Assembly: GCA_018816705.1 (NCBI GenBank) | Contig: JAHIVG010000079.1 | Span: 8,064-72,063, forward strand | Direction: 5' to 3' | DNA: 64,000 nt | Source: Nanobdellota archaeon | Lineage (GTDB): Archaea; Nanobdellota; Nanobdellia; Woesearchaeales; JAHIVG01 | Part shown: piece by piece, positions 20,766 to 63,977 of the stretch | How the letters are laid out: each line of letters starts with the position of its first letter | Position numbering within the stretch: position 1 is the stretch's first letter | Made by a program: the position numbers and the translations under genes | The notes under the pieces: generated by a model | What the model was told of the DNA's origin: nothing | The model's database searches: none | The model's input: the letters and a program-made list of their open reading frames with translations, nothing else

Positions 20766-23700
20766 GCCAGTCCCAACCTCTCCTTGACGACCTCGTTGTT
20801 AGCCAGGATCCTGGTGCCGTACTGTGCGTTAGAGCTGTGGCCGTCTGTCTGCAGCTCAAAGAAGGGTTTGTCCGCAGTATCGAATATCCTAGCAAGATGG
20901 TAAAAGAGGAACGAGTCAGGACCGCAGGCATAGTTGGTCATCAAGACCGGGAACAGCCTCGGGTGCTCTGCGACAAACAAGGCGTCCTGGATTATCCGCC
21001 TGCCCTGCTGCCAAAACATATTCTGGACAATGTCAGTGATGTCTATCTCTCCCGTGTCAAAAAAATAAGCAGGCATGAACTCCAGGCCACGCTGGGAGAA
21101 CAAGGAGCCTGTCTCAGCAGATGCCTTGGGGTCGAAGATAGTGTAGCCGCGGCCGATGCCAACGAAAGCATAAGTGTCCTTGTTCTCAATATCCTCGAGG
21201 AACGATTCACCTATCCAGTGCGTCCTGCGGTTGAAGCCCTCCTGCGCGACCTCTGCCAGGCCTAACGCGTCCTTTACCTGCCGTTTGGAGAAACGCCTGC
21301 CATACACCCTCCTGAGGTCAGCGTAGAACCGATCAACGAGAGTGTTGTTGGGATCGTCGAAGCGGATTATGGGCATGAGACTGTCGTTCTCCAAGGAAAG
21401 GTTGGCAGAGATGTTGTAATTGATAGATGCTGAGTATGGGCAGCTCTTCAAGCGCTCTGGGGAAGAGCCGTTCTCGAGCTGGGTGCCGATGAAGCTGGGA
21501 AGAAGCAACTTGAAATCCTCTCCCTCCAATGCCTCTTTGAGGTATGCAGCATGGCCATGCGCCAGCTTTGCAGGAAAACAGTTCTCGGAGTGGGAGTGCT
21601 TGAAGCCCAACTTGACGATATCATCCATGCTCTCAGGCGAGACCTTAACATCGAAGCCGAGATGATTATAGAAAGCAGCGAAGAAGACTGCCTGCTCGTT
21701 GAAGAAGAACATCGACCTAGGTATGGCCACCACGCCGTTCGAGGATGGCTGGTCGAGCGGGATAGAAAGTGCAGATACGCTGCCCTCCAGCTGCTCAAGA
21801 TAGACCTTTGTGTAATCCTTTGTCTGCCCCCTTGCAGTGAAATCAGTCGCTCCCTTAGGGCATAAGCCGCCGGCATAGACCCGGTCATCACCTATCTTAT
21901 ACTCATCGAGGTAGCAATCCCTCTTGCCGCAGGTATCCTCTCCCAAGAGTGAGCTGCAGTTGCCGCTGCTCCTGTTGAAATCCATATCGATCAGGCCGAA
22001 GCCGCGGAAGGCGCTCTCCAAGGTCTTTCCTTCTTCCTCAGCCTTATCAAGCCTCTGCTTAACTGCGACAGCAGAACCTATGGCCCCCATGACCTCGCGG
22101 TGAGGCAATGCGTGGATACTCTTGCCTGTGAGCTGTGCCAGCATGGCCAGAGCTGCCTTGCCGAGGAAGGGTCCTCCCTGGGCAGAGCAGTACTCTCCGA
22201 GGTTCTCGTTGCCGACAAACTTTGTCACGTATCCACCGATAGCAGCGTAAATCATCCCAGCAGCGAGCTCCTGCTTGGTGAGGCCCATAGAAGCGAGGTC
22301 AGCAATGCCGGCCTCGCTGAAGACAGCGCAGGTGCTGTCGACATAAGGCACTCTTCCTGCTTTTAAGGCCTCATCCTGAAGGGAACCCTTCACATCCAGG
22401 CCATAACTCATTGCAAGATTCTCCAGGGTCTGGCCCGTGCCCGCAAAGCAGGCGAGGTTCATCTTGGCAGACCTCACCAGCCCGTCCTTGTCAAGGCGTG
22501 TGAACTTGGCATCCTGCCCTCCGAGCTCGAAGATTGTGTCAACCGGAACACCAGTCTCATACTGGAACAGGCGGCACCCGTTCTTGTGGCATGTTATCTC
22601 ATCCTTAAGCACATCGCTCCTGTCCCTCTTTGAGACATCTGTAAATAGGATTTCGTAGAGCCCGGCGCTCGAGCCGGTGAAGCCGGTACCTCTCACTGAA
22701 CCGATAAGGTTGCCCATGGCATCCACTATGCCCTGCAGGAGCTCTTTGCCCGCCTTCTCAGGATCGCCTTCGGTATGGATGTACTTCTTGTAATACATCG
22801 TCTGCACATTATCAGCGTCAACGACAACCACTTTGGAAGTGGTGGAGCCGCCGTCAAAGCCCAGGATGACATCAACCTTGTGGTCAGGCAGCACAAGCGG
22901 CTTCTCTTCGTAGAGGACGACGTTGTCAAGAGAAAGCGGCGGGCCGTAGGCAATCTTCTCTCTTTGTTTCTCAGCCAAAGAGTAAATCCTCTTGGAATCA
23001 AGATGTCTAAGCCTATCCGCATGCTCGAGGCCGAGCAAGGCTGCACCGATCGCACCCACCCCGATGGAGTTCTCTTCCCAATAGATGTTTTCGGAAGGCA
23101 TTCCAATAATCTTTCCGATCTCAGAGATGATATGTGCATTGGCAGCCACCCCTCCGGTCCCCATTGCCTTTGCATCAGGATTGAGCGTCCTGGCCCGGAT
23201 GACATCACCGACATAGTTCATGGCGATGCGTCCTTCCATGGCGCTGAGGATGTCGGGTATCCTGTAGCCGGCGTTCTGCTTGTGGATCATGTCAGAAGTA
23301 ATAATCACGCCGCAGCGGCCGCCTATCTCGAGGTCCTGAGTCGAGGAACCGACGACCTGGGCAGCGTGGCCAATCACGAGACGCATCTGCTCCTCCAACT
23401 GCTCCCTGTCAGTGCCTTCAACTGGGAACAGGTGGCTGAAGTACCTCTTGTACTGCTTGGCCAGAAGGATGCCTGAGCCCCCGCCGCACTTGGTGCCGGT
23501 CTCATAGACCACGACACCGATGTCAGGGTCGACCTCAAAGAAGTAAGGGTCGCGCGCGCCGATGTGGAATATATACTTGATATCAGGTGCGAGATGCTGA
23601 GCCCCCCGGGGAATGGTCTGCGTGTCATAGGCGAAAAATGTGTCGTTGGCCTCAGCAGCCAGCCTGCCGCCGATGCCTGTGAATGAGACCCCCTCGAGGC

Positions 23701-23940
23701 CGTAGGACATCTTGACCCTGTCGTGGATATCCATTGTAAGGCTGTGCGGTGAGCCGAAATGCGAGAATGAAGATGATTCGACGATGCTGCCTGAAAGGTC
23801 CAAGACAGCAGCGTGCACACTAGCAGAGCCGATGTCTAACCCTAGCACGACTTCGTCTATCGACAAATGACAACACTCCCGATAAAGCGCAATGACGGCC
23901 TTCTTTAAAAGTTTTCCCTTAAGAATGATGAACAAACACA
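20762..23940 (-). CDS. Fusion of two BadF/BadG/BcrA/BcrD-type (HgdC-like) ATPase modules with a dehydratase-like C-terminal domain
   Basis: Two ASKHA-fold segments (LGLDIGSASVHAAV... and ILGFDGGSTTSKVVV...) are followed by a ~400 aa C-terminal domain. The ORF track starts at 24034. A start at 23940 (MCLFIIL) is preferred, with GAGGT 4 nt upstream. Confidence 0.7.
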
Positions 23941-24118
23941 TAACCTCTGTTGAAAATGACCTGGCCCGGATCGCGCCAGGCCCACCAATAATTGAAACCC
24001 CCATTTCACTGTCCCACCAAATGCACCCACCCACCCTGCATGACGTTGTGCTTGTCGAGACATTTCAAGAGCACGAGAGCTGAAAGCCCCTATGCCATAA
24101 TCGCAGAGAGAAATAATT

Positions 24119-30684: not shown

Positions 30685-32508
30685 ATGGAACCAGAAAACA
30701 CTCACAAGATGGTGCCGGACACTTCTGTATTGGTCGATGCCGCGGTATCAAAGAAGATAAGCAAGGGCGATATCGCCCCGGAAGAGATCATCATCCACGA
30801 AGCGGTCATCGCAGAGCTGGAGCACATGGCCAATGAGAACAAGGCCATAGGCTTCTTAGGCCTGGACGAGATCGGAAGGATAAAGGAGCTCTCAGAAGAG
30901 AAAGGCTTCAAGATACGCTTCGGCGGCAGGAGACCGACGCTGAGAGAGGTCAGGGAATCATCCTTAGGTGAGATAGACGCCCTGATACGCGACCTCGCCT
31001 TCGACGAGAGCGCAACACTGATCACAGCAGACAAGGTCCAGGCAAAGGTGGCCAAGACAAAGGGCATCCCCGTACTGTTCATCGAGCAAAGCCAGACAAA
31101 GAAGAAGCTGGAGCTGGACAAATACTTCGACAAGACCACGATGTCAGTGCACCTCAGGGAGAACGTGCCCCCATACGCGAAGAAAGGCGTTCCGGGCAGC
31201 TGGCAGTTCGTCAAGGTAAAAGATGATTTGCTCAAGCAGGAAGAGATACAGGACATATCCAGGGAGATAATCGAGGAAGCCGGTCACCGCCGTGACGGAT
31301 TCATAGAGATAGAACGGCCAGGCAGCACGATCGCCCAGTTAGGAAGCTATAGGATAACCATCACAAGGCCGCCGTTCAGCGACGGATGGGAGATAACGGC
31401 TGTGAGGCCGGTCAAGAGGATGGGACTCAGCGATTACAAGCTGAGCGAGAAATTGCAGGCAAGGATAAGCGAACAGGCAGAGGGAGTGCTGATAGCAGGC
31501 TCTCCAGGGCACGGCAAGAGCACATTCGCCCAGGCGCTCGCAGAGTTCTACGCATCGAAAGGGAGGATTGTCAAGACGATCGAGGCCCCGAGAGACCTGG
31601 TGCTGCCGGAGACAATCACCCAGTATGCGATAAGCCACGGCACGCAGGAAGAGATACACGACATACTGCTGCTCTGCAGGCCAGACTACACCCTGTTCGA
31701 CGAGATGCGCAACACGAACGATTTCAGGCTCTTTGCAGACCTCAGGCTGTCAGGCATAGGCCTGGCAGGTGTGGTGCACGCGACGAATCCCATCGACGCG
31801 ATCCAGAGGTTCGTCGGCAGGATCGAGCTCGGCGTGATACCCCAAGTGATAGACACTGTGATATTCATAAAGAATGGGGCAGTGGACAAGGTCCTGGCCC
31901 TGAAAATGATGGTCAAGGTACCGTCAGGCATGACAGAAGCCGATCTCGCAAGGCCGGTAGTCGTCGTGAACGACTTTGAGACCGACCGCCTGGAGTTCGA
32001 GCTGTACAGCTACGGTGAAGAGACCGTCGTCGTCCCAGTGGGAAAAGATGAAGGGGCTAGCAGCCCAGCAAAGACACTGGCCTCAAAGACAATCGCGGAT
32101 GAACTGCACAAGCACGTGGAGCACGTCGAGGTCGAGATGGTCAGCGACCACAAATGCATAGTACGGGTGCCGGAGCACAGGATAGCCAAGATAATCGGCC
32201 GTGGCGGAGAGAACATAACACAGCTTGAGAGGAAGCTCGGCATAAGGATAGACGTGCAGCCCCTGGAGGAAGAGAAGGGCGGGCAGACAGTGCAGCCCGT
32301 CGAGACAAATGTATCGAAGAAATTCATCCTCTTCAACCTGGGAGGCAAGTACAGCAACCGGGACGTGCACATATTCATCGACAACGACTTTGTGCTCACG
32401 GCCAAGGCAGGCAAGACAGGGCTGATAAGGATCAAGCGCAACAACAAGATGGGGCAAGTCCTCACAGAAGCCATCAACACGAAAGAAAGGCTGGAGTTCA
32501 GGCTGTAA
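30685..32508 (+). CDS. PIN-domain / PilT-type ATPase / KH-domain protein (PINA-like)
   Basis: N-terminal PIN domain, central ATPase with Walker A GSPGHGKST, C-terminal KH domain (IAKIIGRGGENITQLERKLG). Confidence 0.75.
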   Translation: MEPENTHKMVPDTSVLVDAAVSKKISKGDIAPEEIIIHEAVIAELEHMANENKAIGFLGLDEIGRIKELSEEKGFKIRFGGRRPTLREVRESSLGEIDALIRDLAFDESATLITADKVQAKVAKTKGIPVLFIEQSQTKKKLELDKYFDKTTMSVHLRENVPPYAKKGVPGSWQFVKVKDDLLKQEEIQDISREIIEEAGHRRDGFIEIERPGSTIAQLGSYRITITRPPFSDGWEITAVRPVKRMGLSDYKLSEKLQARISEQAEGVLIAGSPGHGKSTFAQALAEFYASKGRIVKTIEAPRDLVLPETITQYAISHGTQEEIHDILLLCRPDYTLFDEMRNTNDFRLFADLRLSGIGLAGVVHATNPIDAIQRFVGRIELGVIPQVIDTVIFIKNGAVDKVLALKMMVKVPSGMTEADLARPVVVVNDFETDRLEFELYSYGEETVVVPVGKDEGASSPAKTLASKTIADELHKHVEHVEVEMVSDHKCIVRVPEHRIAKIIGRGGENITQLERKLGIRIDVQPLEEEKGGQTVQPVETNVSKKFILFNLGGKYSNRDVHIFIDNDFVLTAKAGKTGLIRIKRNNKMGQVLTEAINTKERLEFRL

Positions 32509-46497: not shown

Positions 46498-47193
46498 TTA
46501 AGGCTCCATCAGGCCGTAAATCACCAGCAGGAACCGGTCAGCAGCCCTTACCAGGTCCCATTCGTCGCCCTCGATTATAGCGCACTGGTCCTCGACAGTC
46601 ACACTGGGCTTGTCAGCGGTGCGCACATAGAAGACAGAGCCGTTGAGGTCACAGGAGCCTATTGCAACGCCTTCGCATGCAGGGTCGATGTCGCTGGTGC
46701 AGGCAGGCTTAGGCGCGATGAGGAAGACCTGGGCCAAAGTCACGCCTATCTCGGTAGAAGCGAGGGTGATGAAGCCCATCTTGGGGTCGTCAGGGTCGAA
46801 GGTGAAATAAAAATCTTCTGACTCACCGAAGGTGTTGTTTCTCCTTATCATCGGGACATCAATGACCTCCCTCGGGCCGTAGTGGAGCGGGATGCTGAAC
46901 AAGTTCTCCCCTTTCTTGATGGTCACGAACCAGGTGTTGCCGACGTTGACGAAGCTGTTGCCGTTCCATATATAGCCCTGTTCCTCGTCCAACTCACCCT
47001 GATAGTTCAGCTGGTGCAGCTCATCTAGGGTGAGGGGCCTTTCATCGTCCTTCGTCAACGAGAACAGCAAGAAGACAGACACGAAGACCGCCAAGACGAT
47101 CACGATGGAGATGGCGAGGTGTTTCCAGCTCCTTTTTTCTTGTAGCTTCTCTCTCTCTTCCAGTCCCTTTTCCTCAGGCTCCTCATTCTCCAT
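46498..47193 (-). CDS. Membrane-anchored hypothetical protein, paralog A
   Basis: Single N-terminal TM. The C-terminal domain is paralogous to 47183-47764 (VTVEDQCAIIEG / VTIDDDCIAISG). Confidence 0.45.
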   Translation of the reverse strand: MENEEPEEKGLEEREKLQEKRSWKHLAISIVIVLAVFVSVFLLFSLTKDDERPLTLDELHQLNYQGELDEEQGYIWNGNSFVNVGNTWFVTIKKGENLFSIPLHYGPREVIDVPMIRRNNTFGESEDFYFTFDPDDPKMGFITLASTEIGVTLAQVFLIAPKPACTSDIDPACEGVAIGSCDLNGSVFYVRTADKPSVTVEDQCAIIEGDEWDLVRAADRFLLVIYGLMEP

Positions 47194-47764
47194 CGAGGAT
47201 ACCTGCCAGGCTGTACATCAGCCTATCCTTTGCGAGAAGGAGGCCATCTTCAGAACCTGAGATGGCGATGCAGTCATCGTCGATGGTGACAGAACTCTCA
47301 TTGGAAGGCAGGAGCATGATGACAGGCACATATTCGGTGGCGTTGAGGCAGCTGATCACAGGAAGGTCATACCTATCGTCCTCCAGGGCGATCCCGGAAG
47401 CTACGAAGACTGAGAACAGCTCTGGCATCTCCTGGCTTAGCTCGAAGCGCACCAGGTCAAACACGGGATCCTCAGAAGGCTCGAAAGACACCAGGATCAT
47501 CCTTGAGCCAAATATCTTATCCTTGGCAGCAGTGTCAAAGGTGACGTTCTCAGCCAGCTCAGGGGTATGGTAGAACCTGAACTGCTTACCATCTATGCTG
47601 GTGTAAAATGCATCTTCCCTGGCAGTGAACTTGTATTTCCCATACTTGAAGTCCGAGCCCTCATCAGGAGCGAGGAACCCTGCCAGGCTAGTGACCATTA
47701 TGAACACCATGAACAGGGTCATATACAGGGCCATCCTTGATGATTTCTTGGTTTTCTTGACCAT
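47183..47764 (-). CDS. Membrane-anchored hypothetical protein, paralog B
   Basis: Single N-terminal TM; related to the neighbour; 11-nt overlap. Confidence 0.45.
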   Translation of the reverse strand: MVKKTKKSSRMALYMTLFMVFIMVTSLAGFLAPDEGSDFKYGKYKFTAREDAFYTSIDGKQFRFYHTPELAENVTFDTAAKDKIFGSRMILVSFEPSEDPVFDLVRFELSQEMPELFSVFVASGIALEDDRYDLPVISCLNATEYVPVIMLLPSNESSVTIDDDCIAISGSEDGLLLAKDRLMYSLAGILDGE

Positions 47765-48266: not shown

Positions 48267-48758
48267 GTGAAGATGGTAAAGATGCAGGCATTCGAAAAGG
48301 AATTCATCGACTTCTTCGTAGGTGTGTTCAGGGGCTTCGGCATGGACTCATTGAGCGCGAAACTGGTAGCCATACTATACATGGAGCCGGAAGAGGTCTC
48401 CATGGAGGATTTGGCGAAGAAGACCGGCTACTGCCTGGCCTCTGTCTCGAACAAGCTGCGCTTCCTGGAGAGCGTGGGGCAGATACAGCGCAGGAAACAC
48501 CCGGGCACCAAGAAGGTGTATTATTACATGCACAAGGACATAGCGAGGGTGCTGAAAGGGAAACTGGAGAAGAGCAGGCAGTCATGCATAGGGCCCATGA
48601 AAGAGGTCCTGCCCCGCATCATAGGGAAATACAGGAACGCGAAGATGGGCCCTAAGGAGAAGGCGAAGATGGCCATAATCAACGACTATTACCGGCAGGT
48701 CACCAAGATCGAGAAGATGATGGAGAAGATGATGGACTATCTGGAGAACCTATCATGA
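48267..48758 (+). CDS. Winged-helix transcriptional regulator (MarR/GbsR-like)
   Basis: HTH region MEDLAKKTGYCLASVSNKLRFLE; first gene of the ABC operon. Confidence 0.5.
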   Translation: MKMVKMQAFEKEFIDFFVGVFRGFGMDSLSAKLVAILYMEPEEVSMEDLAKKTGYCLASVSNKLRFLESVGQIQRRKHPGTKKVYYYMHKDIARVLKGKLEKSRQSCIGPMKEVLPRIIGKYRNAKMGPKEKAKMAIINDYYRQVTKIEKMMEKMMDYLENLS

Positions 48759-49441
48759 AAGGCCCAGTAATCGAGCTGCGGAATGTCTGGAAGACCTACA
48801 CCATGGGAGCGGTCAAGGTCAACGCCCTATGTGGGCTCAGCCTCCAGGTCTTCAAAGGGGAGTTCCTCGCGGTCATGGGGCCAAGCGGCTCCGGCAAGTC
48901 TACAGCAATGAACATGATCGGCGTCCTGGACATACCCACCAAGGGCACCGTCAGCCTGGAGGGCAAGAACATATCCGAGTACGGCGAGAGCAAGCTCGCC
49001 CAGATAAGGGGGAAGAAGATAGGCTTCATATTCCAGCAGTTCAACCTGATAAACACGCTCTCAGCCAAGGAGAACGTCATGCTGCCCATGATATTCCAGG
49101 GCACAAGCAAGGCAGTGAGGCAGAAGCGGGCAGAAGAGCTGCTCACCCTGGTCGAGCTGGGGGATAGGATGAACCACAAGCCCACAGAGCTCAGCGGCGG
49201 CCAGCAGCAGAGGGTCGCGATAGCGAGGTCATTGGTGAATGACCCGGAAGTCGTGCTCGCAGACGAGCCGACAGGCAACCTTGACTCAGCCACAGGGCAG
49301 AACGTGTTGGACTTCCTGAAAAAGCTCCATAAGGAAGAGAATAAGACAATAGTCATGGTCACCCACGACCCAGGCCTCGCGAAGAGGGCGCAGAGGGTCG
49401 AATATCTCATGGATGGCAAGATCACGAAGCGAGGTGGATAA
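48755..49441 (+). CDS. ABC transporter ATP-binding protein (MacB/LolD-type)
   Basis: GPSGSGKST, LSGGQQQRVAIARSL and VLADEPTGNLD. Confidence 0.9.
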   Translation: MKGPVIELRNVWKTYTMGAVKVNALCGLSLQVFKGEFLAVMGPSGSGKSTAMNMIGVLDIPTKGTVSLEGKNISEYGESKLAQIRGKKIGFIFQQFNLINTLSAKENVMLPMIFQGTSKAVRQKRAEELLTLVELGDRMNHKPTELSGGQQQRVAIARSLVNDPEVVLADEPTGNLDSATGQNVLDFLKKLHKEENKTIVMVTHDPGLAKRAQRVEYLMDGKITKRGG

Positions 49442-49442
49442 T

Positions 49443-50696
49443 ATGAAGACAACATGGATGATCGGAATTATGGCAATCTTGATGATACCAATAGTGCTGG
49501 CAGACGCACTTGACAACGACCTGGAAGCAGTCTTGCTGAACCAGGACCCTGACCCGGTGGAACCGAACCGGTACGTGGATGTCAGGTGGAGAGTGAACAA
49601 CCAGGGACTGAGCGAAGCGCGTAATATAGAGGTCGAGCTCGTCCCCCAATACCCTTTCACCATCGAGCGGGGGGATGATTCCATAAAGTCCATAGGGACG
49701 CTGCTGGCCAGGCAGATAGACGAGTACGGAGTGATCGTCAAGTTCAGGCTAAGAGTGGACGCGAACGCGGTGCACGGCACCAACCAGGTAAAGCTCCGCT
49801 ACAGGATAGACGGAAGCAGCTGGACAGACTTCGACGAATATGAGCTGAGCGTGAGGAGCCGCGACCCGATACTCTCGATAGAGGACGTCAAGATGATTCC
49901 GCAGAGCGTGGAGCCCGGAAGGATGGCGACAATCTCCTTCAAGCTGAACAACATGGCAGACGTCATGTTAAGGAACCTCAAGATCACCCTGGACATCAAG
50001 AGGAGGCTGACAACGGCGACATCGGTGACATACGAGGAGATGCCGATAACACCCCTAGACTCGACCAACGAAAAGATACTCAGAGATCTGCTCCCGGGAA
50101 AGGAATCCGAGATAACGTTCCAGTTCCTGGCAGACCCTGACGCCGACCCTGGTGTTTACAAGCTCCCAATAACCCTCACATACTCAGATGACTTCGGCAG
50201 GAACTACACCCGGAACTACTACACCAGCCTGATCATCAAGGGCGTACCCCAGATTGTCGTGCATCTCGACGACTCTGACGAGCTCGCGCCGGGCAAGAGA
50301 GGCACTGCAGTCGTGAAGTTCATCAACAAGGGCCTGCACGAGGTCAAGTTCCTCGATATCAAGGTGGAAGACGGCGAGGATTATGCACTACTCTCGGCCG
50401 GGGAGGTATACATCGGCAACATAGACTCGGATGATTATGAGACCCTCGAGCTAGACCTCTACGTCAAGCAAGGTGCAGAGAAGATCACAGTACCGTTGTC
50501 ACTGACCTTCAACGACGGGAACAACCAGCAGTACGAGATGAGCAAGGACATAGAGATAAGCCTGTACAGCGACGAGGAGATGAAGGACCTCGGACTGCAG
50601 GAGAAGAGCAACGGAGCAGGCCTGATCATAGTGATAGTGGTCGTGGTGATAGGTATCGTGATCTACTTGCTCATCAGGCGCAGAAAGAAATCATGA
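49443..50696 (+). CDS. Secreted surface protein with a C-terminal TM anchor (COG1361/S-layer-domain-like)
   Basis: N-terminal signal (MKTTWMIGIMAILMIPIVLA), repeated beta-rich domains, and a C-terminal TM + RRRKKS. Confidence 0.5.
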   Translation: MKTTWMIGIMAILMIPIVLADALDNDLEAVLLNQDPDPVEPNRYVDVRWRVNNQGLSEARNIEVELVPQYPFTIERGDDSIKSIGTLLARQIDEYGVIVKFRLRVDANAVHGTNQVKLRYRIDGSSWTDFDEYELSVRSRDPILSIEDVKMIPQSVEPGRMATISFKLNNMADVMLRNLKITLDIKRRLTTATSVTYEEMPITPLDSTNEKILRDLLPGKESEITFQFLADPDADPGVYKLPITLTYSDDFGRNYTRNYYTSLIIKGVPQIVVHLDDSDELAPGKRGTAVVKFINKGLHEVKFLDIKVEDGEDYALLSAGEVYIGNIDSDDYETLELDLYVKQGAEKITVPLSLTFNDGNNQQYEMSKDIEISLYSDEEMKDLGLQEKSNGAGLIIVIVVVVIGIVIYLLIRRRKKS

Positions 50697-51916
50697 TCCT
50701 TGACTATTTTTCTTTTTCTCTTCACGGGCTGAGGCAGCGCAAGCTGCGCTCATGGCTTACCATGATAGGCATATTCATAGGGATAGCGGCCGTAGTGTCA
50801 CTGATAGGCCTAGGGGAAGGGCTACGGCTGGCCATAATATCACAGTTCGGCTTCCTCGGCAGCGACGTGCTCAGCGTGCAGGCCAAGGGCCTCGGATATG
50901 CGGGGCCGCCGGGCACGGCTGTCACAAACCCCCTCACGGACGACCTGGCAGCGAAGATACAAAAGATACCTGGGGTGGAGGCGGCCATCAACAGGTACAT
51001 CAGGACAGGCACCATGGAATTCAACGACAAGCAGCAGATAGGCTGGGCCATGTCAGTGTCCTCAGGCGAAAACAGGAAGCTGATGGAGACGATGCTCAAC
51101 CTGAAGGCGGAACAGGGAAGGCTGTTGAAGGACGGTGATGGTAGGAAAGTCCTTCTCGGCAAGGATTTCAATGAGGAAGCCATGTTCGGGAAGCCGATCA
51201 GGGCCGGCGACAGGGTCCTCATAAGCGGCATCAAGTACGAAGTCGTGGGGATACTCGAGAAGAAAGGGAGCTTCCTGATAGATGGAGGGGTATTCATCAA
51301 CGAAGAGCCCCTGCTGCAGGATTTCGGCGACACAGGTGAGGTCAACATCATCGGGGTCAAGGTGAGGGACCCTGACCGCATCGACCAGGTGAAGGAGGAC
51401 ATCGAGAAGCTCCTCCGGCGCGAGCGCAAGGTGAAGGTGGGGGAGGAGGACTTCGAGGTGCAGAGCCCACAGCAGACGCTGGAAGCCCTGAACTCAGCGC
51501 TGTTCGCGGTCCAGCTGTTCGTCTACATAATAGCGGGCATATCTCTGATCGTCGGCGGCATAGGCATATCCAACACGATGTACACCGCCGTGCTCGAGAG
51601 GACGAAGGAGATAGGCATACAGAAAGCGATAGGCGCGAAGAACTCCATGATATTTGCCATATTCGCGATAGAGTCAGGCATGCTCGGCATGGTGGGCGGC
51701 ATAGTGGGCATTGCAATCGGCGCAGGCCTGGCCTACGGAGGGGCCTTCTTCATGAGGAGGGCGCTGGGAGCTGGGATATTCCAAGCAAGCGTCGGGCCAG
51801 GCTTGGTGTTAGGGGCGCTGTTCTTCTCTTTCATCATCGGAATGGTGGCAGGCCTGCTGCCTGCCTACGCGGCATCGAAGATGCAGCCAGTGGATGCGTT
51901 GAGGTTCGCAAAATGA
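50693..51916 (+). CDS. ABC transporter permease, FtsX/MacB family
   Basis: N-terminal TM, large extracytoplasmic domain and 3 C-terminal TMs. Confidence 0.8.
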   Translation: MILDYFSFSLHGLRQRKLRSWLTMIGIFIGIAAVVSLIGLGEGLRLAIISQFGFLGSDVLSVQAKGLGYAGPPGTAVTNPLTDDLAAKIQKIPGVEAAINRYIRTGTMEFNDKQQIGWAMSVSSGENRKLMETMLNLKAEQGRLLKDGDGRKVLLGKDFNEEAMFGKPIRAGDRVLISGIKYEVVGILEKKGSFLIDGGVFINEEPLLQDFGDTGEVNIIGVKVRDPDRIDQVKEDIEKLLRRERKVKVGEEDFEVQSPQQTLEALNSALFAVQLFVYIIAGISLIVGGIGISNTMYTAVLERTKEIGIQKAIGAKNSMIFAIFAIESGMLGMVGGIVGIAIGAGLAYGGAFFMRRALGAGIFQASVGPGLVLGALFFSFIIGMVAGLLPAYAASKMQPVDALRFAK

Positions 51917-53124
51917 AAGGGGCCACAATTACATGGGCGCTGAAGAACATCCTCCACAGGAAGATGAGGAGCTCGCTCACGGTCCTGTCCATACTCATAG
52001 GTGTGATGGCGATTTTCGCCTTAGTGAGCTTCGGCCTGGGCATAAAGAACTACATGGACGTCCTGGCAGAGGACATGGGCATAGACAAGCTCTTCATACA
52101 GGCCAAGGGCGCCGGAGCCCCAGGCACGGACGAGAGTTTCTACCTCTCAGAAGGGGACATCAATTTCGTGCGGAAGATCAAGGGGGTCTCTGATGTAGCA
52201 GCCTTCTATGTGAAGGTGGCCGAGATCACACAGGGGAAAGAGACCAAGTACGCCTTCGCCATGGGATATGACCCGGCAGACACAAAACTGGTGGAAGAGG
52301 CCCTGACGGTGGATATCGAGAAAGGGCGCCAGCTCAAGAAGGGCGACGTGAAGAAGGTGCTGCTGGGCTACAACTACCAGTTCGAGAACAAGTACTTCAA
52401 GAAGGAGATAAGCATCGGCGACAAGATAGAGATAAACGGTGAGAAGTTAGAGGTGATCGGCTTCTACGGCCAGGTCGGCAACGCGCAGGACGACTCCAAC
52501 ATCTACATGACTCTCGAAGGCATGGAGTCCATATTCGACGACATCACGGGCAAGTACGGATGGGGCCTGATCAGGGCGGACAAGAACGAGGATCCCGAGG
52601 CCCTGGCCGACAAGATCCAGGAGAAGCTCAGGAAGTACAAGGGCCAGGAGGAGGGCAAGGAGGACTTCTACGTCCAGACCTTTGCGGACGCCCTCGCCAC
52701 CTTCAGCAACATCATTGGCATACTCAACACAATACTGTATGTGATCGCTCTCATCTCGCTAATAGTGGCTTTCGTCAACATCATGAACGTGATGTACACC
52801 GCCGTGATTGAGAGGACAAAAGAGATAGGCATACTGAAGGCGGTAGGGGCGAAGAACGGGGACATCTTCACCATATTTGTATTCGAATCAGGCTTCCTCG
52901 GCATGCTCGGCGGCGCCGCGGGTATACTGTTCGGCTGGGCCATCGCCAGCTTGGGGGGGCTGATAGCCTCTTCTGCAGGCTACCCCCTTCTCACCCCGAT
53001 ATTCCCCTGGTACCTGATAGCGGGCTGCTTAGCCTTCGCATTCTTCGTTGGCGCCCTCGCAGGGTTCCTGCCCGCGCTGCAGGCGTCGAAGCAGAACGTG
53101 GCTGATGCACTGAGGTATGAATGA
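51913..53124 (+). CDS. ABC transporter permease, FtsX/MacB family (second copy)
   Basis: A paralog of the upstream permease, overlapping it by 4 nt. Confidence 0.8.
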   Translation: MKGATITWALKNILHRKMRSSLTVLSILIGVMAIFALVSFGLGIKNYMDVLAEDMGIDKLFIQAKGAGAPGTDESFYLSEGDINFVRKIKGVSDVAAFYVKVAEITQGKETKYAFAMGYDPADTKLVEEALTVDIEKGRQLKKGDVKKVLLGYNYQFENKYFKKEISIGDKIEINGEKLEVIGFYGQVGNAQDDSNIYMTLEGMESIFDDITGKYGWGLIRADKNEDPEALADKIQEKLRKYKGQEEGKEDFYVQTFADALATFSNIIGILNTILYVIALISLIVAFVNIMNVMYTAVIERTKEIGILKAVGAKNGDIFTIFVFESGFLGMLGGAAGILFGWAIASLGGLIASSAGYPLLTPIFPWYLIAGCLAFAFFVGALAGFLPALQASKQNVADALRYE

Positions 53125-53972: not shown

Positions 53973-54956
53973 TCATGTCCTTTTTTTCATCCTGGCCAGA
54001 TACCTGTCGAGCCGGACCTTGACGTCTTCTTTCAATATGTCTGGTATAAGGTCAAGGGAGATATTGCCAGGGAGCCTTGTCATTGATCCAAGAAATTCTC
54101 TTCCAGCAAGATTCGCCTGCTCTTCTATAGTCTGGGCTTCCTTTCCTCCGAAGAGCCTTATCGCAGGGAACTTGCTGATCGAGTTCGCGCCGGCCATGAA
54201 GAAGAGCGATATGGCATCCACCCTGTCAGCCCATATGCCCGCTTGGATGTCTATCTTAGGGAAGGCGATCCTTGTCCTGGCAATCCACTCAGCCTGATAC
54301 TCAGCCAGAGGAGGTAGTACATGCTCAAATACAGTGCCTTTCTGCGGGTTCAGTCCGTAGATGTGGATCTTCGAGATATCATGCTCCTTGATGAAGCTCT
54401 TCAGGAGCGGGAAATCATCCATGGTCTCGCCGAGGCCGAGGATGATTGTCATGCCCTTCTGCAGCCCCTCTGCCTGGTCGAATATCTTTAGGAATGGCTC
54501 GACCGGTTTGCTGGGGCAGACATCAGCGTGGACCTTCGGGTTGACGGTCTCTATCGAGGCGACGACGCCCTTCGCATAAGGCCTGAGATCTTCAATGAGA
54601 ATCTTCGGCAGCGGCCCCGCGTTTATCCATAGCCTCTCCTGGGCAGCTTCGGAAAGGGCCTTGACAAGCTTGACAAAATCTGTCTGGGTGTAGGCATCCT
54701 TACCGCCTGAGAGGAAACCTATCCTCCAGCCCAGCTTCTTGCAGAGCAGGACTTCGGCGAGCAGCGAAGAGAGCGATCTCCTCGCAGTCGGCTTCGCCTT
54801 GCCCTTCTGCGTGCTCATATAACAGTACTTGCAATCTGCAGTGCCGCAGTACCAGGAGAAGAACAACGCGCGCTCGAACCAGGTCGTAGCTGGGAAATTC
54901 TCAAGGAAGACCTTGTGTGCCTTATCGACGATGCCTGTCATGGAAGCCGGATACAA
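53973..54956 (-). CDS. Fe-S / radical-SAM-like TIM-barrel protein with a non-canonical CX4CX2C motif
   Basis: The cysteine cluster is WYCGTADCKYCYMS. Confidence 0.45.
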   Translation of the reverse strand: MYPASMTGIVDKAHKVFLENFPATTWFERALFFSWYCGTADCKYCYMSTQKGKAKPTARRSLSSLLAEVLLCKKLGWRIGFLSGGKDAYTQTDFVKLVKALSEAAQERLWINAGPLPKILIEDLRPYAKGVVASIETVNPKVHADVCPSKPVEPFLKIFDQAEGLQKGMTIILGLGETMDDFPLLKSFIKEHDISKIHIYGLNPQKGTVFEHVLPPLAEYQAEWIARTRIAFPKIDIQAGIWADRVDAISLFFMAGANSISKFPAIRLFGGKEAQTIEEQANLAGREFLGSMTRLPGNISLDLIPDILKEDVKVRLDRYLARMKKRT

Positions 54957-55014
54957 AGAGCATTATATAAAGATGATGGGAAGATTTATAATGACATAGT
55001 GCGGAAGGACAGCT

Positions 55015-56247
55015 ATGAAAAAAGGGGCGCACCAGGTGGACTGGGCGATGAGCATGTTCATCTTCCTGCTATACCTGATCTGGTTCTTCATCATGGTGCA
55101 GCCTGTCCTCAAGCCGATGAAGGACATAAACACGCTCATGTCCTTGGTCGAGGAGGGCATCGACGAGGAAGTGCTATGGGAGGTGCAGCGGGCCCCGCTC
55201 ATCATACAGACAAACAGCACCGAGGACTACGTGCCCATCCGAGTCAGCACGAAGAACTGGACCCAGGTATCGTTCTGGCCTTCCACATACATAGCCATCG
55301 ACGAGGGCGAGCTCGTATTCATGGGCAACATCTCGCCAGGCAGGACCTACTGGCTGTACAACAGCAACACCTCTTATGCTGTCCCGGATCCGGTGCCATG
55401 GGTGATAGCCGATTCCACATCGGCCACAGCCCCGCCGACAAAGCTCAGAGCCATATTCAACAGCTCACTGGTGTCGAGGCTGGAATACAACGGGACGAAG
55501 CTGCTGTCCTTCAACATATACATCAACGACGTCGAGTTGCCCCGCACGACCACGGAGACGAACTTCACCAAGATATACGCCAAGTACAAGCTGGTCCAGC
55601 AGGGCTTCAACATAAGCAGCTACATCTACCAACAGAGGAGCGAACTCTGGATGAGCTTCCATTACGGGACCCCGATTGAGATGACAATGACAACGGCCTT
55701 ATCAGACTATACCAACTACTACACCAACAACCTGTACGCGGGCAGGCTGAACTACACAAGCCAGACATGCACCAATTATTCTGCAAACACCATAGACATC
55801 TATTCAGAGACCGGCCTGCAGTTCCTCTTCGACAGGTCAGTCAACATGTCGCTGTGCGCCCACAACAGCTCGACGCTGAGGATGAACATAAGCATGTTCA
55901 ACGTCACAGAGATGCGTATAGTGCTGCACGAGGGGGATTACACCCATATGAAAGCGGGGCTGTACAATCACACAGCCATCCTCGGGGCTGCGGAGACCAT
56001 AACCGGCGCCAAATGGAGCAACCTGATCGGCCTGAACAACACAGACCATTGGACCCTGAAGCAGCGCTGGTCAGTCCCCACAGAGAGGGATTTCTCGTTC
56101 TCGGTAAGGAACTCAAGCCACACCTCCGTCGATCATTCCATCGTCACTCCGCCGAAGGTGGACATACACGCAATCACAAAACCATTGCTGATCGTGGACG
56201 AGTACGCAAGGACCAACAGCACGCAGCTGGTCATAAGGGTGTGGTAG
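55015..56247 (+). CDS. Extracellular protein, membrane-anchored and densely N-glycosylation-sequon-rich, with an MKKGA N-terminus
   Basis: N-terminal MKKGA + hydrophobic segment; more than 15 N-x-S/T sequons. Confidence 0.4.
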   Translation: MKKGAHQVDWAMSMFIFLLYLIWFFIMVQPVLKPMKDINTLMSLVEEGIDEEVLWEVQRAPLIIQTNSTEDYVPIRVSTKNWTQVSFWPSTYIAIDEGELVFMGNISPGRTYWLYNSNTSYAVPDPVPWVIADSTSATAPPTKLRAIFNSSLVSRLEYNGTKLLSFNIYINDVELPRTTTETNFTKIYAKYKLVQQGFNISSYIYQQRSELWMSFHYGTPIEMTMTTALSDYTNYYTNNLYAGRLNYTSQTCTNYSANTIDIYSETGLQFLFDRSVNMSLCAHNSSTLRMNISMFNVTEMRIVLHEGDYTHMKAGLYNHTAILGAAETITGAKWSNLIGLNNTDHWTLKQRWSVPTERDFSFSVRNSSHTSVDHSIVTPPKVDIHAITKPLLIVDEYARTNSTQLVIRVW

Positions 56248-56619
56248 ATGAAGAAAGGGTTCATCAGGACACTCGAAGCCTTCATAGCAGGAGGCATAAG
56301 CTTCATGGTGCTGTTCTACATAATCCAGGCCAACACCCCGGCAGAGACAAGGAGGGATATTACACCCATCCTCGGGAACATGTTGCATGACGACGGCTTC
56401 AGGCTGTGCGCAGCCAACGAGAACACGACCTGCATATCTGAGCTCATCTCCCCGCTGATGGGGCCGGCAAGGGACCACATCATCAACATCACTTCCGATG
56501 CATCCCAAGCGCCGGCAGGGCTGCCCGACAAGCGGGTGGATGTGGAGACCCTGTACATATCAGGCAACGGCACGTCCTACGACCCTAAGATAGTCCGGCT
56601 GTACAGCTGGGTGAGATGA
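56248..56619 (+). CDS. Type IV pilin-like protein with a class III signal peptide
   Basis: MKKG|FIRTLEAFIAGGISFMVLFYII: a KG|F cleavage-like site with Glu at about +6, followed by a hydrophobic helix. Confidence 0.45.
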   Translation: MKKGFIRTLEAFIAGGISFMVLFYIIQANTPAETRRDITPILGNMLHDDGFRLCAANENTTCISELISPLMGPARDHIINITSDASQAPAGLPDKRVDVETLYISGNGTSYDPKIVRLYSWVR

Positions 56620-56803
56620 ACCGGTCGCTTATCATTTCTATTATACATGTCCCCTCGTTGACCATCCAGACCCCCACTCTCTAAAACTGGTACTTTGGCC
56701 CCGTTTCGCTTCACCACCACTTCCCCCACCCCCATGTAAGTTGCCTTAGAAATTTAATCCAAACAATATCCTTTTTCGTTCCTTTACAGGTCGCTGCCCT
56801 CAC

Positions 56804-56890
56804 TCTTTTTTCCCCGCCTCGGCACACAGAGTGAGCGAAGCTCACTTGTGCGCAAGACTCCGTCTTAGCGCGCGGGGCGGAGGAAAAAAG
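56804..56890. repeat. Hairpin repeat element, family X, copy B
   Basis: ctcttttttccccgcc...AGTGAGC-gaa-GCTCACTtgtgcgcaagactccgtctt...ggcggaggaaaaaag. It shows compensatory differences from copy A. Confidence 0.6.
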
Positions 56891-56984
56891 ACCCGACATC
56901 AGTTGGGCGCGACCTGGAGGAGGCTATTTCATCAGAGTCCGCTGGAGCAAAAGATATTTAAACACACGAATCTGATGAGGTGGC

Positions 56985-57260
56985 ATGAGGATAGAAGTCG
57001 ACACGAAAAAAGACACGAAAGAGGAGATATCGGAACTCATCGGATTCTTACATAGGCTGAGAGACATGTCGAGCGCGGAGAGATCCACCATCAGCGAAGA
57101 TGACAGCCAGGATGACAGCGAAGGCATCACTGAGATGGCCGGCATGGCCGCAGCCAGGGACCTGTTCGGCAACCAGATAGAGGAAGATGATGAAAAGCCA
57201 CCCGAGGTCAGGTCAGACAAGGACGAGGAAGCACCGGACGTCGAGATAGTACAATATTGA
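56985..57260 (+). CDS. Small acidic hypothetical protein
   Basis: 91 aa, Asp/Glu-rich. Confidence 0.3.
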   Translation: MRIEVDTKKDTKEEISELIGFLHRLRDMSSAERSTISEDDSQDDSEGITEMAGMAAARDLFGNQIEEDDEKPPEVRSDKDEEAPDVEIVQY

Positions 57261-63695: not shown

Positions 63696-63977
63696 TGTGG
63701 GGAGTGCATAAGCCATCTTCTGTATTCTGCAACATTCGACTAAGCGCTTAAAGCTTGCACCGGCCAGGGCTCGCCGTTTCACCGCCATCTGGGGAACGTC
63801 TGCTGCGCAGCCCAGTCGCCTAGGTGTGCTGGAGCGTCATCCTTGGCCCAGAAGCGTTCGTTTCTGTGCGGTTGCCTCCCCTTTCGAGGACCCGTAGGGT
63901 GGCCTTTCGCGGTGGATGGACTTTCCTCAGCTACCAGGCTTCTCAGCCCGGTTACCGGCAGTTGCATGCACCCCCAC
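63696..63977 (-). ncRNA. rnpB: RNase P RNA
   Basis: The minus strand carries: P1 GTGGGGGTGC...GCACtCCCCAC; P4 5' strand GAGGAAAGTCC; ACAGAAA; GGCGGTGAAACGGCG (the CR-IV-like GGTGAAA); and ACAGAAGATGGCTTAT (the CR-V-like ...GGCUUA). A TATA TTTAAATA lies ~25 nt upstream. Confidence 0.75.

What the first reader, a model, noticed from the sequence alone, without database searches (positions are those of the whole stretch)
53973..56619. Divergent locus: a CX4CX2C Fe-S/radical-SAM-like enzyme opposite a pilin-like pair, one heavily N-glycosylation-sequon-rich
The 327-aa enzyme has WYCGTADCKYC, with spacing 4+2 rather than the canonical 3+2 of radical SAM. Divergently transcribed are two MKKG-initiated proteins. 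The small one (123 aa) has a convincing class III (type IV pilin-like) signal, KG|FIRTLE + hydrophobic helix. The large one (410 aa) carries more than 15 N-x-S/T sequons, as expected for an archaeal surface glycoprotein. This could be a minor pilus or surface structure with a dedicated modifying enzyme.
Basis: partly seen in the sequence, partly recalled or inferred. Interest (0 to 1): 0.5.

Follow-up and report, generated by a model that had tools for sequence, protein, structure and literature searches.

The report
Pilin-like surface pair beside unrelated radical-SAM gene
In this small symbiont-type archaeon (Woesearchaeota-like), two adjacent genes encode a conserved pair of pilus-type, sugar-decorated surface proteins, the larger carrying a carbohydrate-binding-like domain that could serve in attachment, while the neighbouring radical-SAM enzyme is a real but separate housekeeping gene, not a dedicated pilin modifier.

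Summary
The radical-SAM ORF (327 aa, probably 322 aa) has CX4CX2C. Two MKKG-initiated ORFs (410 and 123 aa) run the other way. The 410-aa protein has 18 N-x-S/T sequons.

The enzyme belongs to the BioB/HydE/PylB branch of radical SAM. Its CX4CX2C motif is conserved in 27 of 28 aligned homologues. At least 356 species genomes carry it, almost all labelled Woesearchaeota or Nanoarchaeota.

The 410-aa protein looked like an orphan, but an exhaustive HMMER search found 379 relatives. In 31 of 35 related loci a homologue of the 123-aa protein follows it directly. Both families have prepilin-type N-termini.

In six loci the pair sits directly after a type IV filament ATPase and two platform genes. 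A confident model (pLDDT 90.9) shows an N-terminal helix and a galactose-mutarotase-like beta-supersandwich ectodomain.

The link between enzyme and pair fails. They co-occur only in this window: 0 of 34 other pair loci, and none of the other enzyme loci. Each gene appears to have its own TATA box.

Verdict: a new, unannotated member of the archaeal type IV filament accessory and adhesin kind, lying next to an unrelated enzyme.

The parts
53973..54941 (-). Radical-SAM enzyme of the BioB/HydE/PylB (BATS) branch, family-specific CX4CX2C cluster motif. Probable CDS is 322 aa from the ATG at 54941; the mechanical ORF extends to a TTG at 54956 (327 aa).
   Evidence: PF04055 E=3.9e-11, 43.8 bits. 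NCBIfam PRK06267 279.8 bits, just under its cut-off of 305; weak HmdB, BioB and PylB hits. Family profile against PDB: HydE 4e-10, BioB 6e-9, PylB 6e-8. The public record uses the 322-aa start.
54822..54848 (-). Codons for C37-x4-C42-x2-C45 (327-aa numbering), the predicted ligands of the SAM-binding [4Fe-4S] cluster.
   Evidence: The three Cys columns are invariant in the 28-sequence alignment. Spacing is CX4CX2C in 27 sequences; one has a one-residue insertion (CX5CX2C). HMMER aligns the motif to the cluster motifs of PylB and HydE.
54516..54518 (-). Codon for Cys147 in the invariant 'CPSKP' motif. It is the only further invariant cysteine, so no auxiliary cluster is indicated.
   Evidence: Invariant columns C147 P148 S149 K150 P151 in alignment A1.
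54963..54971 (-). TATA-like box (TTTATATAA on the - strand), about 26 nt upstream of the ATG at 54941. Putative promoter of the enzyme gene, implying a leaderless mRNA.
   Evidence: Read directly from the sequence. The spacing rule for archaeal promoters is established knowledge. The function is inferred.
54985..54991 (+). TATA-like box (TTTATAA), about 27 nt upstream of the ATG at 55015. Putative separate promoter of the two-gene pilin-like operon.
   Evidence: Read directly from the sequence. The function is inferred.
55015..56247 (+). Large prepilin-type glycoprotein (410 aa). It has the signal MKKG|AHQVDW, a helix at residues 5-32, and an all-beta ectodomain with a galactose-mutarotase-like supersandwich. 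It carries 18 sequons and a conserved Cys252/Cys281 pair. Member of an unannotated family.
56248..56619 (+). Small prepilin-type protein (123 aa). It has the signal MKKG|FIRTLE, a hydrophobic helix, a conserved Cys pair, conserved sequons and a C-terminal ..LYSW. It is the conserved, translationally coupled partner of the 410-aa protein.
   Evidence: A homologue lies directly downstream of the large gene in 31 of 35 loci. Alignments. The stop/start gap is -7 to +6 nt in 28 of 31 loci.

Best explanation
The region holds two independent units.

Unit 1, the enzyme. It is a radical-SAM enzyme of the biotin-synthase/HydE/PylB branch that is widespread among Woesearchaeota-type genomes. Three conserved cysteines, spaced CX4CX2C, would bind the [4Fe-4S] cluster that cleaves SAM. 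Its substrate is unknown. By analogy with its branch, I infer that it is a small molecule or cofactor precursor rather than a pilin.

Unit 2, the two-gene operon. It encodes a large and a small protein with prepilin-type (class III) N-termini. They belong to the archaeal type IV filament system.

Proposed mechanism for unit 2 (inferred):
1. Both proteins insert in the membrane with the short basic N-terminus inside the cell.
2. A PibD/EppA-type prepilin peptidase, encoded elsewhere, cuts after Gly4.
3. The ectodomains are N-glycosylated at their many sequons.
4. The filament ATPase and platform, encoded elsewhere in this genome, lift the pair by their hydrophobic helices into a pilus. They would act as a 1:1 minor-pilin or tip complex.
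5. The large subunit's galactose-mutarotase-like supersandwich, which has no conserved catalytic residues, serves as a carbohydrate-binding or adhesive head. That would fit attachment to a host cell or surface.

Shown: family membership, conserved N-terminal motifs, conserved pairing, operon context in relatives, predicted fold, sequon excess, and lack of linkage to the enzyme.

Inferred: cleavage, glycosylation, incorporation into a filament, and carbohydrate binding.
For: Enzyme:
- Pfam, NCBIfam and PDB hits.
- Conserved CX4CX2C in 27 of 28 sequences, plus invariant C147.
- Present in 356 species genomes, with variable neighbours.

Pair:
- The 410-aa family has 379 relatives, mostly matched over their full length.
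- Its N-terminal logo is K/R, G/A | x-S/T-Q-V/I-D-W, followed by about 20 hydrophobic residues.
- The 123-aa family has KK[AG]|[FY]x[RK]T[LIVM]E, with T8, E10 and W121 invariant.
- The two genes are adjacent in 31 of 35 loci, with an overlap or a gap of 6 nt or less in 28 of 31.
- In six loci (L125, L126, L130, L132, L134, L138) the pair directly follows a FlaI/T2SSE ATPase (PF00437, 2e-31) and two T2SSF platform genes. Pilin_N-type pilins lie upstream in the two loci read in full, L126 and L138.
- The AF2 model has pLDDT 90.9 and pTM 0.81.
- Sequons are in excess in the window protein and across the family.

No linkage:
- The enzyme and the pair co-occur only in the window.
- The spacer has separate TATA-like boxes.
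- A chance radical-SAM neighbour is expected at this frequency.
Against: - No filament ATPase, platform protein, prepilin peptidase or AglB was found in the 64-kb window. The machinery is therefore only assumed to be elsewhere in the genome.
- The loci with machinery next to the pair carry a shorter (258-291 aa) version of the large protein, not the 410-aa version.
- Neither family matches the Pfam pilin models (Pilin_N, Class_IIIsignal). There is only a weak match to DUF7287, confined to the N-terminal 40 residues, in 12 of 52 members.
- The small protein has Glu at +6 rather than +5, and its single-sequence model was poor (pLDDT 45).
- Cleavage, glycosylation and carbohydrate binding are untested.
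- In 12 related loci a different radical-SAM gene (c382) sits just upstream of the pair. Some radical-SAM involvement in other lineages is therefore not excluded.
Confidence: 0.72

Rival explanations
1. One reading: the CX4CX2C radical-SAM enzyme is a dedicated modifier of the adjacent pilin-like proteins. The precedent would be the Fe-S protein AapX in the Sulfolobus Aap pilus locus.
For: - The genes are divergent, only 73 nt apart.
- An Fe-S protein of unknown function belongs to the Aap pilus locus (bioRxiv 10.64898/2026.04.22.720090).
- ORFs with a radical-SAM motif are enriched within 3 genes of the pair: 12 of 79 against 9 of 854 in the background.
- The closest syntenic relative, L087, has another BioB-like radical-SAM gene 1.5 kb from the pair.
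Against: - The window's enzyme family is found next to the pair in 0 of 34 other pair loci, and the pair is found in none of the other enzyme loci.
- The enzyme's neighbours vary across relatives: ribonucleotide reductase, NAD synthase, M1 peptidase, FtsX permeases.
- Of the 12 nearby radical-SAM-motif ORFs, 11 belong to one orthologous family (c382) in inherited synteny. That family is absent from the window.
- The two remaining cases (the window and L087) match the chance expectation of about 1.5. Their enzymes are unrelated beyond the superfamily.
- BATS-branch enzymes with known function act on small molecules (established knowledge).
Confidence: 0.05
2. The pair is not built into a filament. 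It stays in the membrane as an anchoring or stator-like heterodimer of the filament machine, comparable to FlaF/FlaG of the archaellum. Alternatively it forms a bindosome-like surface complex, with the supersandwich domain contacting the S-layer or cell-wall glycans.
For: - The 1:1 pairing is strictly conserved, with overlapping stop and start codons.
- In relatives the pair lies directly after the platform genes, whereas the Pilin_N-type pilins lie upstream of the ATPase.
- The N-terminal helix plus beta-sandwich architecture is shared with FlaF/FlaG (established knowledge).
- In most lineages the pair is kept apart from any machinery genes.
Against: - Both families conserve the [KR][GA] cleavage context. 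The large one has an acidic residue at +5 and the small one at +6. To my knowledge FlaF and FlaG are not processed by the prepilin peptidase.
- No sequence similarity to FlaF/FlaG models was seen.
Confidence: 0.18
3. The two proteins are ordinary Sec-dependent membrane-anchored or secreted glycoproteins with no relation to type IV filaments.
For: - They match no pilin Pfam model.
- No filament machinery lies in the window.
Against: - The invariant charged residue sits inside the start of the hydrophobic segment (D+5 in 49 of 49 members where the motif was located; E10 invariant).
- The conserved K/R-G/A lies before the hydrophobic stretch, not after it.
- The hydrophobic helix has transmembrane length (residues 5-32).
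- Six related loci show a filament-operon context.
Confidence: 0.05

Closest known systems
Minor pilins and adhesin-like class III signal-peptide proteins of archaeal type IV filament 'System 1' (the Epd pilus of Methanococcus maripaludis) and of subsystem 4A as found in DPANN archaea
   Same: - Short basic N-terminus, a [KR][GA] cut site and a hydrophobic helix.
- In relatives, loci with one ATPase and two platform genes, with accessory genes downstream of the platform. This is how System 1 and 4A are described (bioRxiv 10.64898/2026.04.22.720090; PMC4858521).
- One accessory protein carries a sugar-binding-type domain.
   Different: - No detectable sequence match to Pfam pilin families.
- The ectodomain is a galactose-mutarotase-like supersandwich. 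The two sources mention a galactose-binding domain (System 1) and a PilY-like adhesin (subsystem 4A/4B) instead.
- In the window, and in most relatives, the pair is separated from the machinery and embedded among housekeeping genes (archease, RtcB).
Large-plus-small minor pilin tip complexes of bacterial type II secretion and type IV pili (GspK with GspI/J; PilX/PilY1)
   Same: A large pilin-like subunit with an extra domain is paired with a small pilin-like partner, suggesting a cap or tip role. This is established knowledge used as an analogy.
   Different: - No homology was shown.
- The bacterial large subunit (GspK) lacks the +5 acidic residue, whereas the archaeal large protein here conserves Asp+5.
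- The fold of the extra domain differs.
FlaF/FlaG (ArlF/ArlG) of the archaellum
   Same: Two co-encoded proteins, each with an N-terminal membrane helix and a beta-sandwich ectodomain, that act together.
   Different: - The conserved cleavage-site context here is one that, to my knowledge, FlaF and FlaG lack.
- No sequence similarity was seen.
- No archaellum genes are nearby.
HydE, PylB, BioB and HmdB (HcgA): the BATS branch of radical SAM
   Same: - These are the best sequence relatives.
- HMMER aligns the enzyme to HydE and PylB from the cluster motif through most of the barrel.
- HmdB shows that this branch tolerates altered motif spacing, CX5CX2C (PMC3087415).
   Different: - The spacing here is CX4CX2C.
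- Scores lie far below the cut-offs of every characterised family (BioB 37.6 against 225; HmdB 49.3 against 321; PylB 29.2 against 348).
- Only one extra invariant Cys is present, so a BioB-type auxiliary cluster is unlikely.
- The substrate is unknown.
- RadicalSAM.org already lists a CX4CX2C cluster (Megacluster-4-11) within this branch (PMC9477430). That this family is that cluster is my inference.
AapX, the Fe-S cluster protein of the Sulfolobus Aap pilus locus (arCOG07320)
   Same: It is the only known case of an Fe-S protein encoded in an archaeal type IV filament locus. Its function is unknown.
   Different: AapX is conserved with its pilus locus. The enzyme here is not conserved with the pair. 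Homology to AapX could not be tested because no sequence was available.

Membership tests
Radical SAM superfamily (PF04055) | Profile match above the curated threshold | tested here: met
   43.8 bits against a cut-off of 29.5, E=3.9e-11.
Radical SAM superfamily (PF04055) | Three conserved cysteines near the start of the barrel that bind the SAM-cleaving [4Fe-4S] cluster (canonically CX3CX2C) | tested here: met
   The three Cys columns are invariant. Spacing is CX4CX2C in 27 of 28 homologues and CX5CX2C in one. HMMER aligns the motif to those of PylB and HydE. Spacing variants, including CX4CX2C, are documented in the superfamily (PMC9477430).
Radical SAM superfamily (PF04055) | Reductive cleavage of SAM | not testable with these tools
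   Needs biochemistry.
BioB/HydE/PylB (BATS) branch; NCBIfam PRK06267 | Score above the curated cut-off of the closest model | tested here: not met
   PRK06267 scores 279.8 bits against a cut-off of 305, a near miss. The BATS domain PF06968 scores 15.6 against 22.2. Best PDB relatives of the family profile are HydE, BioB and PylB. The enzyme belongs to the branch but is not a certified member of any named family.
Biotin synthase BioB | TIGR00433 above cut-off, and ligands for an auxiliary [2Fe-2S] cluster | tested here: not met
   37.6 bits against 225. Only one further invariant Cys, C147.
Archaeal type IV pilin-like (class III signal peptide) proteins | Short basic N-terminus, [KR][GA] cleavage context, then a hydrophobic helix of about 20 residues | tested here: met
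   Both proteins show it, and it is conserved across both families. The model places a helix at residues 5-32.
Archaeal type IV pilin-like (class III signal peptide) proteins | Encoded with a filament ATPase and a platform protein | tested here: inconclusive
   Met in six related loci, which carry the short version of the large protein. Not met in the window or in most loci with the long version.
Archaeal type IV pilin-like (class III signal peptide) proteins | Match to a curated pilin model (Pilin_N PF07790, Class_IIIsignal PF04021) | tested here: not met
   No hit for either protein or for their families. Only a sub-threshold DUF7287 match over the first 40 residues, in 12 of 52 members.
Archaeal type IV pilin-like (class III signal peptide) proteins | Cleavage by a prepilin peptidase and assembly into a filament | not testable with these tools
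   Needs proteomics and microscopy. No peptidase gene was seen in the window.
Archaeal N-glycosylated surface proteins | Sequon excess beyond what composition predicts, confined to the ectodomain | tested here: met
   18 observed against 5.2 +/- 2.0 expected, and the first sequon is at residue 67. Across the family the excess is 2.3-fold, with 37 of 52 members at z>2. No AglB motif lies in the window. Glycosylation itself is untested.
Galactose-mutarotase-like beta-supersandwich domains | Fold match | tested here: met
Galactose-mutarotase-like beta-supersandwich domains | Conserved catalytic residues of an epimerase or hydrolase | tested here: not met
   No invariant or near-invariant polar residue lies in the ectodomain. 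Only P61, C252, C281, G324, G331, F360 and W410 are conserved. A non-enzymatic role is inferred.
Pilus locus with a dedicated Fe-S or radical-SAM partner (Aap/AapX-like) | The Fe-S gene is conserved next to the pilin genes across relatives | tested here: not met
   0 of 34 other pair loci and none of the other enzyme loci show the association. Homology to AapX was not tested.

The most novel reading that the evidence does not exclude
Radical-SAM chemistry really is tied to this pilin-like pair, but through interchangeable enzymes. The c382 radical-SAM gene sits immediately upstream, on the same strand, in 12 related loci. A BioB-like enzyme lies next to the pair in L087, and the CX4CX2C enzyme lies next to it here. 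On this reading, different lineages recruited different radical-SAM enzymes to install a modification on these surface proteins, as a DPANN counterpart of the unexplained AapX of the Aap pilus.
Probability: 0.08. Interest if true: 0.7.

Novelty: new member of a known kind. Interest (0 to 1): 0.33.

Why it matters
Woesearchaeota and other DPANN archaea are tiny and mostly uncultured. [quoted passage not shown] How they attach is poorly understood.

This work defines a conserved and so far unannotated two-protein module of their type IV filament system. Its large, heavily sequon-decorated subunit carries a lectin-like supersandwich domain, which makes it a concrete candidate for the adhesive part of the pilus.

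It also documents a radical-SAM family with a conserved CX4CX2C motif and unknown substrate, carried by at least 356 species genomes almost all labelled Woesearchaeota or Nanoarchaeota. That is a target for enzymologists.

Finally, it is a caution for genome scans. A tempting divergent gene pair did not survive comparison with relatives. And proteins that look like orphans in word-indexed searches can belong to families of hundreds.

Tried and rejected
- **Word-indexed homology search.** The searches for the 410-aa and 123-aa proteins returned only themselves. 'Orphan' was rejected once the exhaustive phmmer search found 379 relatives.
- **Single-sequence AlphaFold of the 123-aa protein.** The model was poor (pLDDT 45) and was not used.
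- **Neighbour clustering around the enzyme.** It showed FtsX/MacB permeases, a GDE-like protein, an AI-2E transporter, RLI and others. None gave a functional lead for the enzyme.
- **Literature searches.** Searches for PRK06267 and DUF7287 found nothing.
- **Profile searches against PDB sequences.** Both pilin-like family profiles gave no significant hit.
- **Search for other machinery in the window.** Pfam scans of about 36 window proteins, a tblastn with related ATPase, platform, c382 and TatD queries, and a WWDxG (AglB) motif scan found no filament ATPase, platform protein, prepilin peptidase or AglB. The PIN-KH ATPase at 30685-32508 has only a sub-threshold T2SSE match and is not a pilus ATPase.
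- **afdb50 fold library.** It was unavailable.
- **The TTG start at 54956.** It was considered and rejected. The TATA-like box lies only 7 nt upstream of it, whereas the ATG at 54941 has the expected spacing of about 26 nt and is the start used in the public record.
- **L087's radical-SAM gene as an orthologue of the window enzyme.** This was considered and rejected (BLASTP E=0.27, canonical CX3CX2C).
Full report
**1. Setting**

The window is archaeal: an archaeal RNase P RNA lies at 63700-63975. It matches a public 81.5-kb contig of a 'Nanoarchaeota archaeon' metagenome-assembled genome. Relatives of its genes are almost all labelled Woesearchaeota or Nanoarchaeota, so this is a DPANN-type archaeon.

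**2. The observation**

The three ORFs exist exactly as reported and are called as genes in public records.

- The enzyme contains WYCGTADCKYC, that is CX4CX2C.
- Both + strand ORFs start with MKKG. The first stop codon abuts the second ATG.
- The 410-aa protein has 18 N-x-S/T sequons. Shuffles give 5.2 +/- 2.0, and none of 5000 reaches 18. Its density is 8.7 times the window mean.
- The 123-aa protein has three sequons (P about 0.03).
- In the whole window, only these two ORFs pass a simple prepilin-type N-terminus test.

**3. The enzyme**

It is a true radical-SAM protein, hitting PF04055 at 43.8 bits against a cut-off of 29.5. It belongs to the biotin-synthase/HydE/PylB ('BATS') branch.

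- NCBIfam PRK06267 ('hypothetical protein') scores 279.8 bits, just under its cut-off of 305. HmdB, BioB and PylB score weakly.
- The family profile hits HydE at 4e-10, BioB at 6e-9 and PylB at 6e-8 in the PDB.
- HMMER aligns the protein to HydE and PylB from the cluster motif through most of the barrel.

In 28 homologues of 51-62% identity, the three Cys columns C37, C42 and C45 are invariant. The spacing is CX4CX2C in 27; one sequence has a one-residue insertion. The only other invariant cysteine is C147, in 'CPSKP'. No auxiliary cluster is therefore indicated.

The family occurs in at least 356 species-level genomes.

The spacing variant is not new to the field. HmdB (HcgA) of the same branch uses CX5CX2C (PMC3087415). 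RadicalSAM.org lists a CX4CX2C cluster, Megacluster-4-11, inside the BATS megacluster (PMC9477430). That this family is that cluster is my inference.

The probable start codon is the ATG at 54941, giving 322 aa, as in the public record. A TATA-like box on the - strand (54971 to 54963) lies about 26 nt upstream of it, and only 7 nt from the TTG at 54956.

**4. Is the enzyme linked to the pilin-like genes?**

It is not. Around homologues of the enzyme the neighbours vary. They include ribonucleotide reductase and an NYN-domain protein, an M1 peptidase with FtsX permeases, and NAD synthase with RLI. Clustering the neighbours across about 78 loci gave no consistent partner.

HMMs built for the enzyme family and for the 410-aa family were run over all fetched loci. 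They co-occur only in the window and in its duplicate contig. None of 34 other loci holding the 410-aa family has the enzyme, and none of the other enzyme loci has the 410-aa family.

The 73-nt spacer has two TATA-like boxes, each about 26-27 nt from its own ATG. This suggests two independent leaderless promoters (the function is inferred).

**5. The 410-aa protein is not an orphan**

The word-indexed search found only the protein itself. An exhaustive phmmer search of 1.84 billion representatives found 379 relatives at E<=1e-3, 56 of them at E<=1e-30. Most are 405-435 aa long and match end to end at 20-35% identity.

The alignment and the N-terminal logo show these features:

- K/R at -2 and G/A at -1, then x, S/T, Q, V/I.
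- Asp at +5 and Trp at +6, in all 49 members where the DW motif could be located.
- About 20 hydrophobic residues, followed by R/K-P.
- Two near-invariant cysteines, C252 and C281.
- An invariant C-terminal Trp.

This is a textbook prepilin-type (class III) N-terminus. The acidic +5 residue is the hallmark of bacterial type IV pilins (established knowledge).

Sequon excess is a family trait. The median is 11 per protein, 2.3 times the shuffle expectation, and 37 of 52 members have z>2.

**6. A conserved pair**

I fetched 53 metagenomic loci and two loci of the closest relative. In 31 of 35 loci that carry the large gene, the next gene is a homologue of the 123-aa protein. At least two of the four exceptions end at the contig edge.

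That small family has these features:

- ..KK[AG]|[FY]x[RK]T[LIVM]E, with T8, E10 and W121 invariant.
- A hydrophobic helix.
- A conserved Cys pair (FRxC...N.TC).
- A conserved GN.T sequon.
- A C-terminal LYYW.

The stop of the large gene and the start of the small gene overlap, or lie at most 6 nt apart, in 28 of 31 loci. Fifteen loci share the same 7-nt overlap. This indicates translational coupling and probably a 1:1 complex.

**7. Link to type IV filaments**

In six loci (L125, L126, L130, L132, L134, L138) the pair lies directly downstream of three machinery genes:

- a FlaI/T2SSE-type ATPase (PF00437, 2e-31; NCBIfam FlaI model 380 bits);
- two T2SSF/FlaJ/UpsF-like platform genes.

In these loci the large protein is a shorter version of 258-291 aa. 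In the two loci I read in full, L126 and L138, several pilins with RGVSPLIATVLL-type N-termini lie upstream. One of them gives a sub-threshold Pilin_N hit (22.6 bits against a cut-off of 25.2).

One ATPase with two platform genes, and accessory genes downstream of the platform, is the layout described for archaeal System 1 and for subsystem 4A in DPANN archaea (bioRxiv 10.64898/2026.04.22.720090; see also PMC4858521).

In 18 loci, including the window, the pair is followed by a small acidic protein and archease. RtcB follows archease in the window and in L087. Several of the machinery-linked loci also have archease right after the pair. The pair therefore looks like the tail of an ancestral filament operon. 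In the window's lineage it has been separated from the machinery.

No ATPase, platform protein, prepilin peptidase or AglB was found in the 64-kb window.

**8. Structure of the large protein**

With the 52-sequence alignment, AlphaFold2 gave a confident model (pLDDT 90.9, pTM 0.81). It has a helix at residues 5-32, a second helix at 38-53, and then an all-beta ectodomain.

- C252 and C281 sit at opposite ends of two consecutive strands, 252-263 and 266-281. This is compatible with a disulfide (inference).
- Foldseek agrees, with E=4e-9.

No polar residue is conserved in the ectodomain. I therefore infer a binding or structural role, not an enzymatic one. This fold commonly contacts carbohydrate in glycoside hydrolases and lyases (established knowledge).

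**9. Most likely mechanism**

This is inferred except where section 8 or earlier sections show it.

1. Both proteins insert with the basic tip in the cytoplasm.
2. A prepilin peptidase cuts them after Gly4.
3. They are N-glycosylated outside the cell.
4. The filament ATPase and platform use them as a coupled minor-pilin or tip pair.
5. The large subunit's supersandwich domain acts as the adhesive, probably glycan-binding, head.

The main rival is a non-filament anchoring pair, like FlaF/FlaG of the archaellum. Strict pairing and the position after the platform genes fit that too. The conserved cleavage context argues for processing.

**10. Other radical-SAM genes near the pair**

In 12 related loci a different radical-SAM gene (c382; CX3CX2C; PF04055 at 6e-12 plus Fer4_12) lies just upstream of the pair on the same strand, often preceded by a TatD-like gene. 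The closest syntenic relative, L087, has yet another BioB-like enzyme 1.5 kb from the pair. That enzyme is unrelated to the window's beyond the superfamily.

ORFs with a radical-SAM motif make up 12 of 79 ORFs within three genes of the pair, against 9 of 854 elsewhere. But 11 of the 12 belong to the single c382 family in inherited synteny, so they do not count as independent events. The window and L087 cases match the chance expectation of about 1.5 events among the roughly 23 loci without c382.

I keep a radical-SAM involvement as a low-probability novel reading. AapX of the Aap pilus is the only precedent.

**11. Verdict**

Both units are new, unannotated members of known kinds. The main value is a conserved candidate adhesin module for DPANN type IV filaments, together with a documented CX4CX2C radical-SAM family of unknown function.

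Noticed in passing
window 56787-56915 (+), with a second copy at about 19050-19230: The 365-nt gap after the 123-aa gene holds a long imperfect hairpin. The RNA MFE is -78.5 kcal/mol for 56770-56930, with z=-7.2 against shuffles. It has no Rfam match even at E<=1. A copy about 77% identical lies in another intergenic region. In relatives the corresponding gap is only a few nt in many loci, so this looks like an inserted repeated element, either MITE-like or an unknown ncRNA family.
   Followed up: partly
window 56985-57260 (+): A 91-aa highly acidic protein (MRIEVDTKKDTKEE..., ending ..VQY) has no Pfam hit. Homologues lie between the pilin-like pair and archease in 18 loci. It may be an uncharacterised partner of archease and RtcB, or of the pair.
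   Followed up: partly
L091:1743-2891 and 11 other related loci (not in the window): An approximately 380-aa radical-SAM protein (CPRNCxYC; PF04055 plus Fer4_12) has no named NCBIfam family. It lies immediately upstream of the pilin-like pair on the same strand, often after a TatD-like gene. The conserved gene order is TatD, radical SAM, large pilin-like, small pilin-like, acidic protein, archease.
   Followed up: partly
window 48267-53124 (+): A PadR-like regulator, an ABC ATPase, a 427-aa membrane-anchored protein with sub-threshold CARDB and Ig-like matches, and two MacB/FtsX permeases lie in a row. The same block is the commonest neighbour of the radical-SAM gene in relatives, in 21 of about 78 loci. 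It may be inherited synteny or a functional hint for the enzyme.
   Followed up: partly
window 16436-24034 (-): A 1080-aa BadF/BcrA-type ATPase with DUF2229 ('CoA enzyme activase') is followed by four consecutive ORFs (463, 287, 204 and 308 aa) with no Pfam match. This is an uncharacterised cluster.
   Followed up: no
window 47183-47764 (-), L032:2074-2658, L022:6817-7383: A family of roughly 190-aa proteins has a basic N-terminus and a single membrane helix (for example MVKKTKKSSRMALYMTLFMVFIMV..). It recurs just downstream of the radical-SAM gene in 8 related loci. It has no Pfam hit.
   Followed up: no
L002:8928-11145: Three consecutive pilin-like ORFs (380, 174 and 181 aa, with RG|VVEVQFNW....KRAQVKITE.. 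and ..KKSQMEIMGL.. N-termini) lie 2.5 kb from the radical-SAM homologue of a marine relative. They show no detectable similarity to the window's pair. Such clusters seem common and fast-evolving in these genomes.
   Followed up: partly
window 30685-32508 (+): A 607-aa protein combines a PIN domain, a P-loop ATPase with a sub-threshold T2SSE match, and KH domains. It was not a tblastn match to the L126 filament ATPase (E<=0.01), so I do not count it as pilus machinery.
   Followed up: no
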